64,000 bases of DNA from Bdellovibrionales bacterium (GCA_965203275.1 OZ241865.1:896001-960000), one strand, 5' to 3'; positions 12,197 to 53,745 are shown, counted from the stretch's first letter. A program made the numbers and translations. The notes: generated by a model not told the origin, from the sequence alone.

Positions 12197-12390
12197 GGGA
12201 TCCTTCTTCTGGGATCTGGCAACCCGGCATCAGGTCCTAAAACTGAACTTTTTCCTTAACATTGTGTTAAAAAAGGAAAGGATCCTTCCTACTAAAAATA
12301 AACGGATTTTTGAGGTATTGCTCTTTTTGGACAGCGTAAGCTGTCAGAGCAATGCCCAAAAACAGCCAGAGGCTGGTTTATTTTTAGTGA
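12197..12390 (-). repeat. Structured repeat family A, full copy with GC-rich tail
   Basis: Minus strand reads tcactaaaaataaac cagcc-tct-ggctg ... gacagc-ttac-gctgtc ... gtttatttttagt aggaaggatc ... ttaacacaatgttaaggaaaaag. Confidence 0.9.
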
Positions 12391-12407
12391 GAATAAAAGG
12401 AGGCGTT

Positions 12408-12806
12408 ATGGCAGAGGCAGCAAAGCATTTATGGATATTATCAAAAGATGAGACATTACAGGAACTTGCAATGGTGAAAGAGAGAGACAGAAAAGATCAA
12501 GCAGCCAGAGAAGATGATGCTTATGAGGAAGGGATGAAGAAAGGTCGTAAGGAAGGGATGGAGAAAGGTCGTAAGGAAGGGATGGAAAAAGGGATGGAAA
12601 AAGGGATGGAGAAAGGAATAGAAAAAGGGATGGAAAAAGGGATGGAGAAAGGAATGGAAAAAGGGATGGAAAAAGGGATGGAGAAAGGTCGTAAGAAAGG
12701 AATGGAAAAAGTAGCACTAAATATGTTGAAAGAAAATCTCAATATTTCATTGATCTCTACAATGACAGGTTTATCCAAAGATGACATTCTCAAGCTGAAA
12801 AAATAA
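12408..12806 (+). CDS. Rpn C-terminal small protein (RpnS-like, 132 aa) with EKGM repeats
   Basis: Strong SD aaaggagg 4 nt before ATG 12408; 12-bp repeats; TGLS..I C-terminal motif. Confidence 0.65.
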   Translation: MAEAAKHLWILSKDETLQELAMVKERDRKDQAAREDDAYEEGMKKGRKEGMEKGRKEGMEKGMEKGMEKGIEKGMEKGMEKGMEKGMEKGMEKGRKKGMEKVALNMLKENLNISLISTMTGLSKDDILKLKK

Positions 12807-12826
12807 ATTACCCAAAAGTGGCCAGA

Positions 12827-12993
12827 GGATTATCCCTAACCCCACCCACCACCCTTTGATTCTGCTTTCCCATTTGTATGTTTTTCATGAGTGAAATGCG
12901 AAGGCAGGCTTCCGAAGTCCTCAACCTTCGCTTGCTTTTGGAGAGCAAGCGGGTCTGCGGAAGATCTCCAGCCTGCATCCGCATTTCACTCAT
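12827..12993 (+). repeat. Structured repeat family B
   Basis: ggattatccctaacccc...gattctgcttt...cttccgaagtcctcaa also found inverted at 20150-20244; 14-bp IR atgagtgaaatgcg/cgcatttcactcat. Confidence 0.7.
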
Positions 12994-13051
12994 AATATTT
13001 ATATTTTTTGAAAGTTACGCAGAATCTGAGAAAAAATAAAAAAACAAAAAG

Positions 13052-13525
13052 AAAGGAACTTTTTCCTTAACATTTCACTCAAAGTGAACTGACCTCTGGT
13101 CACTTTCTGGTTGCCAGCCGAAGGCTATCGCCTTCTCAAATGCTGACAACCTAGAAAGCTTGACCACTTTTAGTAATAAGGATCCTTTTATTCCTCTACA
13201 CCATGTTAGGGAAACAAGATATGCTTCTAACTTTTTGTGGAGCAAACGGGATGCAAGAAAGGAACTTTTTCCTTAACATGGAGTTAAGGGACGAAGAGAT
13301 CCTCCTTACTAAAAGTGGTCAGGCTTTCTAGGCAATGACCATTTTGCCAATGGCGAAATGTCAAAGTGAAATAAATATCTTGTTTCCTTAACATGGGGTT
13401 AAGAGACGAAGGGATCCTCTCTACTAAAAGTGGTCAGGCTTTCTAGGCAATGACCATTTTGCCAATGGCGAAAGCCATTGCGGTCATTGCCAGAAAGTAG
13501 CCAGAGGCTAGACCACTTTTAGTGA
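13052..13525. repeat. Cluster of family A repeats (one +, one partial -, one full -)
   Basis: tttcactcaaagtgaac at ~13072; copy 13375-13525 ends gaccacttttagtga. Confidence 0.9.
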
Positions 13526-13526
13526 G

Positions 13527-13564
13527 AAAAAAGGCAAAGCAATTTACAGATGCTTTGCCTTTTT
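13527..13564 (-). terminator. Bidirectional intrinsic terminator downstream of the flp gene
   Basis: aaaaaaggcaaagca-N9-tgctttgccttttt. Confidence 0.75.
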
Positions 13565-13635
13565 ATTATGATACTCTTTGATGTGATTGCATGGCCTTGC
13601 TTTGTGATCTCAAGATGCTTTTTTTAATGTTGATG

Positions 13636-51078: not shown

Positions 51079-51211
51079 CTCATTCTTGTTATCTTAAGTT
51101 TAATAGTAAAAAATCATTTAAGTCAAATATACTTTGTTTGTCATAACATTTGACTGACTTATAACTGTTCTAAGAATGATATGTATTATTGTGTGACCTT
51201 CTCTACAAAGA

Positions 51212-51403
51212 TCATCCTTCTGGGATCCGGGATCGAGCAACCCGGCATCAGAAAGAACTCTTTTTCCTTAACATCATGTTAAAAGAGGAAAGGATACTTT
51301 CTACTAAAAGTGGTCAGGCTTTCTAGGTTGCCAGCATTTGAGAAGGCGATAGCCTTCGGCTGGCAACCAGAAAGTAGCCAGAGGCTAGACCACTTTTAGT
51401 GAA
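51212..51403 (-). repeat. Family A full copy plus tail (cleanest example)
   Basis: Stems 51303-15/51388-400, 51319-24/51369-74, 51326-35/51359-68, 51342-47/51352-57, 51375-79/51383-87. Confidence 0.93.
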
Positions 51404-51495
51404 CCAACAGCGAATATTTTATATAGAAATATTGTAAAGCTTTAGGTGGGCTTAGAGGCTTAGAGGTTGAAATCAACTGGTTTTGATTTAAGGAA

Positions 51496-52155
51496 TTATA
51501 CATTTAGATTGAGTTGTTTGGGTTTGAAAGTTTGAGGTGAATTCACAAGTTTAGCACTGTCACCGACTGCCTTAATCACAAATAATCCTTGTCCCTCTGC
51601 ATATTTGATAAGGAGCTTCTCATTGTCTGCTTTCAAATAACCTATAGCAATGTAAACTTTTTTATTGGAAAATCCATTGTCTTTGATAGCTAGAAAATTT
51701 TGTACTTTTTTAATAAAGTCTTTTACTTTTGTTTTTGTCATTTTCTTTTTAGCTTCTGTTATAATGACTTTATCACCATTGATGGTGATAGAATCAAACT
51801 CAAACTCAAGCGGAGTGGCACCATCCATAAAACAGTAAGTTTTTTTGTTGATAGTTTCTACCTTGCCTTTGATGATCCCATAATCTTCAAATAGCCTTTC
51901 TACATTGTCAGAAATAAGAATCTCTACAAAATCTCCCCATCTATGATCCCAATCACCTCTTAATTTATTAATATTATTTGCTGTCTGTCTAGTCACTTTG
52001 TCTATCTCTCCACTTAATTTGTCTATATTTTGACGTGTCTCGTCTATTTTTTGAGCTAGATTTTTCTGCACAGCAATAACTTCTTTCAGTGCCTTCCACA
52101 CTGCTTCAGGTGTATGATCAGATTCTTTTTTCTTTTTGTTGTTTTGATTAGCCAT
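51496..52155 (-). CDS. Coiled-coil plus PD-(D/E)XK-like nuclease domain protein (DUF3782-like), copy 1
   Basis: WGDFVE..., EFDSITINGDKVIITEAK (D...ExK), YAEGQGLFVIKAVGD. Confidence 0.75.
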   Translation of the reverse strand: MANQNNKKKKESDHTPEAVWKALKEVIAVQKNLAQKIDETRQNIDKLSGEIDKVTRQTANNINKLRGDWDHRWGDFVEILISDNVERLFEDYGIIKGKVETINKKTYCFMDGATPLEFEFDSITINGDKVIITEAKKKMTKTKVKDFIKKVQNFLAIKDNGFSNKKVYIAIGYLKADNEKLLIKYAEGQGLFVIKAVGDSAKLVNSPQTFKPKQLNLNV

Positions 52156-52160
52156 ATTTT

Positions 52161-52610
52161 TTTCACTAAAAGTAAACTAGCCTCTGTTTCCCTAAAATTG
52201 AACTAGCCTCTGGCTATTTTTGGGCAGTTAGCCTTTGATGACGGCGGTAGCCGTCGGGCTAACTGCCAGAAAACATGCCAGAGGCATGATGCATTTTGAG
52301 TGAATTAGAGGCATATCTTGTTTCCCTAACATGGTGTCAGAAGCAAGGAGATCCGCTCTACTCAAAATGAGCAGATTTTTGAGGCATTGCTCTTTTTAGA
52401 CAGCGATAGCTGTCAGAGCAATGCCCAAAAACACACCAGAGGTGTGGCTCATTTTGAGTGAAATGTTAAGGAAAATGTCTTTGATTATCGGGCTATAATG
52501 CCAGAGGCATGATGCATTTTTTACAGGCATATGTATTTTTTATTGAGCAGATTTTTGAGGCATTGCTCTTTTTAGACAGCGATATACTAGAGGTGTGGCT
52601 CATTTTCGAA
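52161..52610. repeat. Cluster of nested and inverted family A copies
   Basis: tttcactaaaagtaaactagcctctg|tttccctaaaattg...; inverted copies end ttttgagtgaa at ~52303 and ~52463. Confidence 0.88.
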
Positions 52611-52806
52611 AATGTCTTTATTATAATTTTACAATGTATTTTTTATTATTTTATAGTCGATTGATTACCATGTCAAACTTTTTAAAAGCAAGCAGAATTT
52701 AAAAAAATAGAAACTACATAAATCAACTCAATGAAATCATCTATCTATCAAACTTAAGTTTAAGGGCAAGCGAGCTTGATGGTGATGGAACAGGAAATGA
52801 AAAGAA

Positions 52807-53592
52807 TTACAAATTTAAGTTCACTTGCTTGGGTTTGAAAGTTTGAGGTGAGTTCACAAGTTTAGCACTGTCACCAACTGCCTTAATCACAAATAATCCT
52901 TGTCCCTCTGCATATTCAATAAGTAGCTTCTCATTGTCTGCTTTCAAATAACCTATAGCAATGTAAACTTTTTTATTAGAAAACTCATTGTCTTTGATAG
53001 CTAGAAAACTTTGTACTTTTTTAATAAAGTTTTTTACTTTTGTTTTTGTCATTTTCTTTTTAGCTTCTGTTATAATGACTTTGTCACCATTGATGGTGAT
53101 AGAATCAAACTCAAACTGAGTGGCACCATTCGCAGAGCAGTAGACTTTTTTATTGACAGTTTCTACCTTGCCTTTGATAATCCCATAATCTTCAAATAGC
53201 CTTTCTACATTTTCAGAAATAAGAATCTCTACAAAATCACCCCATCGATTGTCCCAATCACCTCTTAATTTATTAATATTATTTGCTGTCTGTCTTGTCA
53301 CTTTGTCTATATTTTGCTGTGTCTGTTTACTCGCTTTGTCTATATTCTGACGCGTCTCTTTACTCACCTTGTCTATATTTTGCCGTGTCTCTTTACTCAC
53401 CTTGTCTATATTTTGCCGTGTCTCTTTACTCACCTTGTCTATCTCTCCACTTAATTTGTCTACATTTTGACGTGTCTCTTCCATTTTTTGAGCTAGATTT
53501 TTCTGCACAGCAATAACTTCTTTCAGTGCCTTCCACACTGCTTCAGGTGTATGATCAGATTCTTTTTTCTTTTTGTTGTTTTGATTAGCCAT
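52807..53592 (-). CDS. Coiled-coil plus PD-(D/E)XK-like nuclease domain protein, copy 2 (expanded 33-bp repeats)
   Basis: Near-identical to 51496..52155 with extra IDKVSKETRQN units. Confidence 0.75.
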   Translation of the reverse strand: MANQNNKKKKESDHTPEAVWKALKEVIAVQKNLAQKMEETRQNVDKLSGEIDKVSKETRQNIDKVSKETRQNIDKVSKETRQNIDKASKQTQQNIDKVTRQTANNINKLRGDWDNRWGDFVEILISENVERLFEDYGIIKGKVETVNKKVYCSANGATQFEFDSITINGDKVIITEAKKKMTKTKVKNFIKKVQSFLAIKDNEFSNKKVYIAIGYLKADNEKLLIEYAEGQGLFVIKAVGDSAKLVNSPQTFKPKQVNLNL

Positions 53593-53600
53593 ATTCTTCC

Positions 53601-53745
53601 TTCACTAAAAGTGGTCTGACCTCTGGTCACTTTCTGGCGATGACCACGATGGCTTTCGCCATCGGTAAAATGGTCATCGCCTAGAAAGCCTGACCACTTT
53701 TAGTAGGGAGGATCTCCTTGCTTTTTAACTACATGTTAAGGAAAA
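53601..53745 (+). repeat. Family A full copy
   Basis: actaaaagtggtc/gaccacttttagt, tgacc-tct-ggtca, ggcgatgacc/ggtcatcgcc, cgatggc-tttc-gccatcg. Confidence 0.92.

What the first reader, a model, noticed from the sequence alone, without database searches (positions are those of the whole stretch)
12197..53745. Dispersed ~150-nt repeat family with an invariant multi-stem fold and fully covarying, interchangeable stems
Seen in sequence: more than 20 full or partial copies in about 13 clusters, in both orientations. Layout: TTTCACT-P1(13 bp)-P2 hairpin NNNCC-TCT-GGNNN-P3-P4-asymmetric loop-P5 with tetraloop-P4'-P3'-P1'-AGGRAGGATC-hairpin TTAACA-NNN-TGTTAAG-GAAA. Stems differ between copies yet stay paired. 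P1: aaagtggtc/gaccacttt, aaagtgaac/gttcacttt, aaagtaaac/gtttacttt, aaaataaat/atttatttt. P2: tagcc/ggcta, tgacc/ggtca, tggcc/ggcca, cagcc/ggctg, catgcc/ggcatg. P4: caatgacc, cattgctct, cagttagcc, ttgccagc, cgatgacc. P5: aaaggc, gacagc, gaaggc, cgacggc, cgatggc. On the opposite strand the P5 loop is usually C-GNNA-G (GAAA, GATA, GTAA, GTGA, GGTA, GACA). Variants combine in different ways between copies. Inference: selection acts on a single-stranded three-way-junction structure (RNA or ssDNA) rather than on sequence. This is unlike a plain MITE and may be an undescribed structured ncRNA or mobile element. I do not recognise it as a known family.
Basis: partly seen in the sequence, partly recalled or inferred. 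Interest (0 to 1): 0.88.

Follow-up and report, generated by a model that had tools for sequence, protein, structure and literature searches.

The report
Self-nesting hairpin DNA repeat family
The window holds many copies of a 150-base non-coding DNA unit that folds into a Y-shaped hairpin, fills about 6% of this small symbiont-like bacterial genome and spreads as selfish DNA by a copying route whose enzyme is still unknown.

Summary
The window holds 32 copies or pieces (17 near full length) of a ~148-nt unit; the genome holds 1,312 hits, about 6% of 2.57 Mb. The five-stem fold with interchangeable, complementary stems is confirmed.

The scan had already found this family in other windows of the same genome (at least 8 earlier reports). 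I agree with their core reading.

New results here:
- Stems keep strict Watson-Crick pairs with no wobble preference, and both strands fold equally well. Copies show no orientation bias to genes or genome position. This fits a DNA-level element, not an RNA gene.
- Young copies protect their stems, while old copies decay at the neutral rate. The fold therefore matters for copying, not for the host.
- Paralogous filled and empty sites show no fixed target duplication. Insertions often replace 2-33 nt of target.
- New copies join head-first, often in hairpin loops of older copies.
- No Y1, Y2, IS110 or reverse-transcriptase gene was found.
- The tie to the small "rRNA intervening sequence" gene holds in two genomes and fails in a third.
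- About 30 Rpn-family nuclease genes sit beside copies, but they do not track the repeat across relatives.

Verdict: a new variant of structured intergenic repeats, mover unknown.

The parts
12195..12395 (-). 201-nt inserted unit (body, tail, linker and heptamer array) that splits an Rpn-family nuclease gene (ORFs 11566-12240 and 12264-12806)
   Evidence: An intact paralog aligns to both sides and lacks the 201 nt. The nhmmer hit is 12248-12390, model positions 3-145.
13073..13525 (.). Cluster: full copy 13073-13217 (+), partial 13265-13358 (-, model 54-145), full 13380-13525 (-). The first copy starts in the loop of a reversed tail hairpin (..CCTTAACA|TTTCACT).
19388..20299 (.). Cluster of six: 19388-19452 (+, 1-65), 19458-19597 (+, 1-139), 19603-19752 (+, full), 19850-19955 (+, 40-145), 19999-20145 (-, full), 20242-20299 (+, 87-143)
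24512..25549 (+). An orphan 26-nt head (24516-24541) followed by a 270-nt tandem array. The array alternates a full copy with a 5'-truncated copy (model 44-140), 3.5 times at 99-100% identity, and ends in a head piece at 25513-25549.
   Evidence: (families D3, D5)
26139..26211 (+). 3' piece (model 70-145)
44980..46402 (+). Stacked head plus 45010-45121 (1-102), then full copies at 45401-45548, 45960-46104 and 46258-46402, all in one intergenic gap
   Evidence: (D14)
49594..50003 (-). Pieces and one full copy (49697-49844) just downstream of an intact Rpn-family gene (49996-51078, -)
51260..51403 (-). Full copy 182 nt upstream of the same Rpn-family gene, in the same orientation, followed by a heptamer array
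52157..52463 (.). Stacked heads and a degenerate copy (52187-52333) plus a full copy at 52318-52463 (-)
   Evidence: (D14)
53601..53747 (+). Solo full copy. A paralogous site carries 33 other nucleotides in its place.
   Evidence: cluster 208

Best explanation
SHOWN. This is a lineage-restricted family of non-coding, intergenic DNA repeats. Each unit has a ~110-nt Y-shaped hairpin body (P1-P5) and a ~40-nt tail of small hairpins, often followed by an array of 7-nt repeats. The family multiplies within the genome as selfish DNA. The fold is a property of single-stranded DNA and either strand can form it. It is kept because only well-paired copies give rise to new copies; copies left in place decay. 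New copies are laid down head-first (..T-Y-T-G|TTTCACT). About one in five heads lands in a hairpin loop of an older copy, either the P2 loop or the loop of a reversed tail hairpin. There is no fixed target duplication, and 2-33 nt of target are often replaced. Pieces of different copies are joined into mosaics.

INFERRED (about 0.3 on its own). The copying route is replicative and RecA-independent. A free 3'-OH end at a nick or break anneals by a few bases to a folded donor strand. The donor is copied from its sharp end. Synthesis then aborts or switches template at hairpins and rejoins the target by microhomology. The roughly 30 Rpn-family PD-(D/E)XK nuclease genes that sit next to copies are candidates for supplying the ends, but this is not shown.
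For: Abundance and recent activity: 1,312 hits covering 155 kb, 6% of the genome. Dispersed full copies have a median nearest-neighbour identity of 96.6%, and 92 of 629 have an identical partner more than 3 kb away.

Intergenic: 4.4% of repeat bases lie in crude ORFs that cover 76% of the genome.

No strand bias along the chromosome and none relative to flanking ORFs: 136 same against 199 opposite in ++ gaps, and 175 against 176 in -- gaps.

DNA rather than RNA: G-T 381 against A-C 349 among 22,705 pair cells. ssDNA fold energies of the two strands are -43.3/-42.8, -44.0/-44.5 and -36.8/-37.0 kcal/mol, z -8 to -12.

Selection at propagation: against the nearest dispersed copy, per-site differences are 0.008 in stems, 0.020 in the unpaired body and 0.026 in the tail for pairs at 97% identity or more. 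In the 74 most diverged copies they are 0.089 against 0.093, and stem pairing falls to 87%. All 16 double-sided stem changes in close pairs keep a Watson-Crick pair. Linkage follows the structure, not linear distance.

Junctions: 137 of 948 heads follow ..CCTCTG of an older P2 loop and 72 follow ..CCTTAACA of a reversed tail hairpin. 143 of 1,026 heads are followed directly by a new head.

Filled and empty paralog pairs: one simple insertion without duplication (cluster 361); replacements of 4, 29, 33 and 2-11 nt (clusters 472, 287/471, 208, 157/158); a 201-nt unit including the heptamer array in the window's Rpn gene.

Nuclease link: elements lie within 300 nt of nearly all PF12784 and PF04754 gene copies, against a 16% baseline. 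In passages I read of PMC5350276, RpnA is a non-specific endonuclease that leaves 3'-OH ends and is proposed to enable joining by primer-template switching.
Against: No enzyme is identified and no template-switch product was observed directly.

The head is sharply defined, which a dedicated site-specific enzyme explains more simply than microhomology does.

The 'empty' paralogs are 84-99% identical in their flanks and need not be the ancestral state. Some of them (clusters 236, 284, 464) look like decayed remnants rather than true empty sites.

Rpn-family genes do not track the repeat across relatives. G003 has 16 PF04754 matches and no repeat. G004 has 12 repeat matches and only 1+1 Rpn-type matches.

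The gene set I used for orientation and intergenic counts is a crude longest-ORF set, not an annotation.

No RNA data were available, so transcription is untested.
Confidence: 0.6

Rival explanations
1. A dedicated single-strand DNA transposase moves the unit. It could be HUH/Y1-like as in REPIN-RAYT or IS200/IS605 elements, or an unknown structure-specific enzyme. It would cut next to or inside hairpins and join the head to a cut target.
For: The head junction is strand-specific and sharply defined. Joins recur at one nucleotide of two hairpin loops. The hairpin fold is under selection for propagation. There is no fixed target duplication, as with IS200/IS605-type insertion (recalled).
Against: No match in the genome (completeness 90%) to PF01797 Y1_Tnp or PF04986 Y2_Tnp. 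The controls for PF04986 did not ring, so that blank is weak. There is no bias of orientation along the chromosome of the kind a lagging-strand-targeting element would give. Target stretches of 4-33 nt are lost at several insertions. The 3' end is not fixed.
Confidence: 0.2
2. The unit is the gene-less arm of an 'intervening-sequence-type' cassette. The cassette's only gene, the 122-aa four-helix-bundle protein (PF05635), is the mobility or maintenance factor. The 150-nt copies would be deletion derivatives.
For: All 14 PF05635 matches in G000 have a copy within about 400 nt. The 9-10 intact genes have the unit's tail facing the gene's 3' end across a heptamer array. 199 of 385 heptamer-array pieces follow a tail in a fixed orientation. 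An inserted unit includes the array. In G001, 11 of the 18 fetched loci have a copy within 500 nt, and so does locus L028. Multi-copy PF05635 co-occurs with the repeat in the family: G000 14, G001 19, G004 19, against 0 in G002 and G003.
Against: In G004, 0 of 18 PF05635 loci have a copy within 500 nt. The 12 repeat matches there lie on other, smaller contigs. Orientation of the unit relative to the gene differs between G000 and G001. Other genomes of the order carry 7-18 PF05635 copies without the repeat. No catalytic activity is known for the family; in passages I read of PMC4990558 and PMC3936711 its function is stated as unknown.
Confidence: 0.1
3. The unit is a structured non-coding RNA (a functional RNA gene, or an RNA-copied retroelement). 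The covariation reflects selection on an RNA fold.
For: A stable multi-stem fold with many double-sided changes. The P5 loop reads G-N-N-A on the minus strand in all common alleles. A-C mismatches on the plus strand (G-T on the minus strand) slightly outnumber G-T once three ambiguous columns are dropped, 236 against 136, but 78 of the 236 come from two columns.
Against: No reverse transcriptase match to PF00078. No Rfam match at gathering score, and the best E-values are 0.3 and 0.48. No orientation bias to neighbouring ORFs. There is no overall wobble preference. About half of the hits are truncated or nested. Old copies decay.
Confidence: 0.05
4. The complementarity of the arms is kept without selection. 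Arm-to-arm template switching in imperfect inverted repeats (quasipalindrome correction) would homogenise the two arms at the DNA level.
For: Strict Watson-Crick pairing without wobble preference. The process is known: abstracts seen in the search listing for PMC7202029 and PMC8604942 ('homogenization of IR arms').
Against: The most diverged copies lose pairing at the neutral rate: 0.089 per stem site against 0.093 per unpaired site, with pairing down to 87%. So arms are not corrected in place. Conserved asymmetries (the P2 branch, the one-sided 7-nt internal loop, a bulge in P3/P4) persist in all three genomes, and homogenisation would erase them.
Confidence: 0.1

Closest known systems
REP / BIME / REPIN elements with RAYT (Y1 HUH) transposases of proteobacteria (PMC3116915 and PMC3337134: abstracts seen in a search listing)
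   Same: Abundant, extragenic, palindromic and non-coding. They persist in one lineage, form clusters and inverted doublets, and are thought to fold as single-stranded DNA for the enzyme.
   Different: The unit here is 148 nt with a three-way junction and a tail, not a 20-40-nt hairpin. No RAYT (PF01797) gene was found. Copies nest into their own hairpin loops. Stems are mosaic. Insertions often replace target bases.
IS200/IS605-family elements and their gene-less palindrome-associated derivatives (features recalled; PMC6006769: abstract seen in a search listing)
   Same: Hairpin ends, strand-specific joining next to a short motif, and no target duplication.
   Different: No TnpA was found. 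There is no chromosome-half orientation bias. The 3' end is variable. Target bases are lost at several insertions.
Structured MITE-like repeats such as Correia, ERIC, RUP, Rickettsia palindromic elements and Bacillus bcr1 (all recalled; only the review PMC10969869 appeared in a search listing)
   Same: 100-200-nt non-coding repeats with long inverted arms that can fold.
   Different: Those have terminal inverted repeats with a fixed target duplication and usually a parent IS. Here no fixed duplication is seen, and the two IS families with identifiable ends have unrelated ends. Unlike Rickettsia elements, copies avoid ORFs.
Intervening sequences of 23S rRNA that carry a PF05635 / S23p gene (PMC4990558, passages read)
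   Same: A small four-helix-bundle gene sits beside hairpin-forming repeats. A mobility role of the ORF was proposed long ago and remains untested.
   Different: The unit is not in the 23S gene here. The arrays that flank the gene are direct, not inverted, in most G000 loci. The gene spreads without the unit in G004.
Rpn (YhgA-like, PF04754/PF12784) recombination-promoting nucleases (PMC5350276, passages read; PMC10400941, abstract seen in a search listing)
   Same: RecA-independent joining by primer-template switching at nuclease-made 3'-OH ends would give junctions like those seen. The window's genes carry the variable 4-residue repeats described for Rpn proteins.
   Different: No link between Rpn proteins and a repeat family came up in my one search on Rpn proteins. 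Their distribution does not track the repeat.

Membership tests
REP/REPIN-RAYT | A RAYT (Y1 HUH, PF01797) gene in the genome, flanked by the repeats | tested here: not met
   0 matches to PF01797 in G000. All 6 first-look candidates were scored, and the control genomes rang in 6 of 14. Genome completeness is 90%.
REP/REPIN-RAYT | A short imperfect palindrome (about 20-40 nt), often as inverted doublets | tested here: not met
   The unit is 148 nt with five helices and two branch points. Tail-to-tail inverted pairs with a conserved spacer do occur.
REP/REPIN-RAYT | Extragenic location | tested here: met
   4.4% of repeat bases lie in crude ORFs that cover 76% of the genome.
IS200/IS605-derived palindromic elements | A TnpA (Y1) gene and/or TnpB in the genome | tested here: not met
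   PF01797: none. The only PF07282 match lies inside a 1,365-aa open frame, not a TnpB-sized gene.
IS200/IS605-derived palindromic elements | Orientation bias tied to the direction of replication | tested here: not met
   Plus and minus counts in 20 bins along the chromosome show no switch between halves.
IS200/IS605-derived palindromic elements | Insertion 3' of a fixed 4-5-nt target, precise and without loss of target | tested here: inconclusive
   T-Y-T-G precedes the head. In cluster 361 the TG came in with the insert, and other events replace 4-33 nt of target.
DDE-type MITE | Fixed-length target site duplication | tested here: not met
   Among about 10 independent filled and empty pairs, the overlap or gap at the site ranges from -15 to +33 nt with no common length.
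DDE-type MITE | A parent IS with the same terminal inverted repeats | tested here: not met
   The ends of the IS256-like (1.4 kb) and IS4-like (2.0 kb) elements are unrelated to TTTCACTAAAAGT or to the tail. Other IS types were not examined.
Any Rfam RNA family | Match at the family's gathering score | tested here: not met
   0 matches in the whole window. In 45350-46450 the best E-values are 0.3 and 0.48, far below the gathering scores.
23S rRNA intervening sequence (PF05635-bearing) | Hairpin insert inside the 23S rRNA gene | tested here: not met
   The single 23S gene (G000:972841-975857) holds no hit. One partial copy lies in the 16S-23S spacer on the other strand.
23S rRNA intervening sequence (PF05635-bearing) | PF05635 gene enclosed by the repeat's arms | tested here: inconclusive
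   Adjacent in 14 of 14 G000 loci and in 11 of the 18 fetched G001 loci plus L028, but in 0 of 18 G004 loci. Orientation is not constant.
Retroelement | A reverse transcriptase gene in the genome | tested here: not met
   PF00078: no candidate at all.

The most novel reading that the evidence does not exclude
The family is the natural client of a transposase-free copying route. Hairpin-folded single-stranded donor copies are copied onto 3'-OH ends made by the genome's many Rpn-family PD-(D/E)XK nucleases (long annotated as 'putative transposases'), with template switching at hairpin loops. This would be the first repeat family tied to Rpn proteins. It would also be a new way for selfish DNA to multiply, in which the fold itself is the replicator's only 'gene'.
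Probability: 0.12. Interest if true: 0.8.

Novelty: new variant of a known kind. Interest (0 to 1): 0.55.

Why it matters
Small structured repeats such as REPs are among the least understood parts of bacterial genomes. This one is extreme in four ways. It fills 6% of a reduced genome. It has a three-way-junction fold with about eight interchangeable alleles per stem. It targets its own hairpin loops. None of the enzymes known to move such repeats is present.

Young copies keep the fold and old ones lose it. The fold is therefore a trait of the replicator itself, which makes this a clean natural system for studying selection on DNA structure.

If the mover turns out to be a nuclease of the Rpn family or the four-helix-bundle protein of rRNA intervening sequences, a very widespread protein family of unknown role would gain a function.

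Tried and rejected
RNA evidence: the one search for sequencing runs listed no RNA holder, so expression is untested.

Laying contigs of four runs on 43800-54000: contigs break at the repeats and most joints are repeat artefacts. No usable empty site was obtained. One joint (45396 to 45671, 140 other letters between, seen in 4 of 4 runs) suggests other content at that site in other samples, but the letters were not shown.

Orthologous empty sites in the same-genus genome G001: not usable. Genes are only 67-74% identical and synteny is broken.

It says nothing about other taxa.

A 7-mer target-duplication test gave 138 recurrences against 181 in the control. It is confounded by nesting and was dropped in favour of paralog pairs.

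Split-copy search for a gene-bearing autonomous form: 41 split pairs, none enclosing a candidate gene in a consistent way.

Multi-copy proteins of unknown family: the 912-aa family gave only weak, scattered Pfam and NCBIfam hits (best an HTH domain, E 2e-14), while the 556-, 333- and 172-aa families gave none. The Atlas gave no usable match for the 912- and 556-aa families.

PF04986 (Y2 transposase): no match, but the control genomes did not ring either, so the blank is weak.

The idea that T-Y-T-G is purely a target motif was rejected, because cluster 361 shows TG arriving with the insert.

Full report
OBSERVATION. A profile built from six window copies finds 32 hits in the window between 12248 and 53747. 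Of these, 17 are full or nearly full and 15 are partial, on both strands, grouped in about ten intergenic clusters. The tail motif AGGRAGGATC occurs 25 times against 6.08 +/- 2.52 in shuffles. Earlier follow-ups of this scan had already reported the same family from other windows of this genome, and I re-tested their main points.

CENSUS AND RANGE. The genome is one 2.57-Mb contig at 35% G+C. It holds 1,312 hits. Of these, 699 span model positions 5 or lower to 140 or higher. Together they cover 155 kb, or 6% of the genome. Dispersed full copies are young. The median identity to the nearest copy more than 3 kb away is 96.6%, and 92 of 629 have an identical partner. A covariance model built from 22 copies of three genomes matches 3 of 5 genomes of the family. 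It matches 3 of 151 genomes sampled from the order. A record title names G001 as a Bdellovibrionales MAG. G000 and G001 genes are only 67-74% identical and not syntenic. Copies differ by about 25% between these genomes. The family is therefore old in the lineage and has kept multiplying in each genome.

FOLD AND COVARIATION. RNAalifold on the 22-copy alignment predicts 45 pairs, and 28 of them show changes on both sides. With that structure, 95.4% of cells pair. Shuffles give 82.3% (0 of 500 reach the observed value), and sliding partners by 1-3 columns gives 33-53%. In 591 distinct full copies each stem has 2-4 Watson-Crick types per pair and about eight common alleles. The two arms of one stem are more tightly linked (normalised mutual information 0.66 for P1, 0.81 for P2, 0.78 for P3, 0.74 for P4, 0.90 for P5) than adjacent modules are. 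The P1 arms, about 90 nt apart, are more tightly linked to each other than either is to P4 or P5. Linkage follows the structure, not linear distance.

DNA, NOT RNA. Of 22,705 pair cells, 21,461 are Watson-Crick, 381 are G-T and 349 are A-C. Wobble pairs are therefore no better tolerated than A-C mismatches. The two strands fold equally well as single-stranded DNA (-43.3/-42.8, -44.0/-44.5, -36.8/-37.0 kcal/mol; z -8 to -12). Copies show no orientation bias to flanking ORFs. They sit in divergent gaps (89 of 322) and convergent gaps (91 of 322) alike, and less often in co-directional gaps (190 of 1,151). There is no bias along the chromosome. Rfam has no match, and the genome has no reverse transcriptase match. 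One small hint of strand asymmetry remains: the P5 loop is G-N-N-A on the minus strand in all common alleles.

WHAT THE FOLD IS FOR. I compared each copy with its nearest dispersed relative. In pairs at 97% identity or more, stems differ at 0.008 per site, unpaired body sites at 0.020 and the tail at 0.026. All 16 double-sided stem changes keep a Watson-Crick pair. In the 74 most diverged copies, stems (0.089) change as fast as unpaired sites (0.093), and stem pairing falls from 97% to 87%. Resident copies therefore decay. The fold is filtered when copies are made. This argues against a host function of each copy, and against in-place arm-to-arm correction as the main cause of the complementarity (the process itself is known; abstracts seen).

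ENDS, TARGETS, NESTING. The head TTTCACT is preceded by T-Y-T-G. At position -1, G is 0.66; at -2, T is 0.85. Conservation fades further upstream. Of 948 heads, 137 follow ..CCTCTG of an older copy's P2 loop and 72 follow ..CCTTAACA, the loop edge of a reversed tail hairpin. Of 1,026 heads, 143 are followed at once by a new head, and the rest of the older copy is usually missing. The 3' side is conserved to TGTTAAGGAAAAAG plus a pyrimidine-rich 8-15 nt. It then varies: 228 of 996 tails run into arrays of 7-nt repeats, and others run into 5'-truncated copies through recurrent linkers. Composite units also amplify; the window's 270-nt A+B array at 24542-25499 is one example.

FILLED AND EMPTY SITES. 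Multi-copy genes and other repeats gave 35 clusters with a paralogous site lacking the insert, and 23 of them have flanks at least 84% identical. The window's Rpn-family gene is split by a 201-nt unit consisting of body, tail, linker and heptamer array. The array can therefore be part of what is inserted. Cluster 361 is a simple insertion with no duplication, and the TG before the head is absent from the empty site. Other events replace 4 nt (cluster 472), 29 nt (287/471), 33 nt (cluster 208, the window's copy at 53601) and 2-11 nt (157/158). Cluster 155 is flanked by a 15-nt direct repeat of the reversed tail. There is no common duplication length. Several junctions show short similarity between the target and the unit's end. 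A caveat applies: paralogs need not be ancestral, and three 'empty' sites look like decayed remnants.

THE MOVER. There are no matches to Y1 (PF01797), IS110 (PF01548), reverse transcriptase (PF00078) or Y2 (PF04986; its controls were silent). The active IS256-like and IS4-like elements have unrelated ends.

The four-helix-bundle gene PF05635 has 14 copies, and all are next to a unit. It co-occurs with the repeat in the family: 14, 19 and 19 copies against 0 and 0. However, only 11 of the 18 fetched G001 loci, plus L028, have a unit nearby. In G004, 0 of 18 loci do. Other genomes of the order hold 7-18 copies of the gene without the repeat. The 'close tie' noted by an earlier report therefore holds in two genomes only.

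Rpn-family nuclease genes give 14 (PF12784) and 16 (PF04754) matches, and TIGR01784 scores 111 bits for the window's gene at 49996-51078. Nearly all have a unit within 300 nt, against a 16% baseline. But G003 has 16 such genes and no repeat, while G004 has the repeat and only 1+1.

MECHANISM. It is shown that this is selfish DNA whose propagation needs the fold, that it joins head-first, preferentially in hairpin loops, and that it has no fixed duplication and forms mosaic products. I infer, with a probability of about 0.3, a replicative primer-template-switch route. A 3'-OH end pairs by a few bases with a folded donor strand next to its sharp end, copies it, stalls or switches at hairpins, and rejoins by microhomology. 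This would give orphan heads, stacks and chimeras. RpnA is described as leaving 3'-OH ends that allow joining by primer-template switching (PMC5350276, passages read). The main rival is an unrecognised structure-specific single-strand transposase (0.2).

NOVELTY AND LIMITS. The kind is known: REP/REPIN-like and MITE-like structured repeats. The variant is new in its three-way junction with tail, mosaic stems, self-targeting of its own loops and absence of a known mover. I found no description of such a family in my searches, but these were few and cover open-access text only. Gene calls here are crude ORFs, there are no RNA data, and no enzyme was tested.

Noticed in passing
window 34647-35537: A tandem array of about 27 units with a 30-nt period (partly 21+9), up to 98% identical between units. 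It is covered by open frames on both strands (34726-35472 minus strand, 34754-35491 plus strand).
   Followed up: no
window 12501-12728 and 50065-50352: Arrays with a 12-nt period (4-residue repeats) in the C-terminal parts of the two Rpn-family nuclease genes. They fit the variable four-amino-acid repeats mentioned in the abstract of PMC10400941 (search listing).
   Followed up: partly
window 46652-49558; also 10905-11357 and 54774-55487: A 968-aa ankyrin-repeat ORF and smaller ankyrin ORFs. Ankyrin proteins are the largest multi-copy family in the genome (31 linked ORFs), which suggests a host-associated lifestyle.
   Followed up: partly
L028:1420-1490 (G001) and G000 around 1905985-1906065: The leader of the PF05635 gene is nearly identical in two genomes whose genes are otherwise about 70% identical. 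In it, TTTCCTCC can pair with the Shine-Dalgarno GGAGGAAA. This may be a translational control hairpin.
   Followed up: no
G000:C1:976345-976413 (outside the window): A partial copy of the repeat (model positions 76-145) lies in the 16S-23S spacer, on the strand opposite to the rRNA operon.
   Followed up: partly
G000, for example 214130-215535 (outside the window): A 1.4-kb IS256-family element. The six copies compared are 99.9-100% identical, so it looks currently active. It is not associated with the repeat (2 of 9 ORF copies have a unit within 300 nt).
   Followed up: partly
G000, for example 142210-144997 (outside the window): A two-gene cassette in 7-9 copies (one ORF of 331-387 aa with a weak ankyrin match, one of up to 556 aa with no family match). 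Repeat copies flank it on the opposite strand.
   Followed up: partly
window 45396-45671: In contigs of all four public runs laid on the window, this stretch (one full copy plus its 3' flank) is replaced by 140 other letters. This points to different content at this site in other samples.
   Followed up: no
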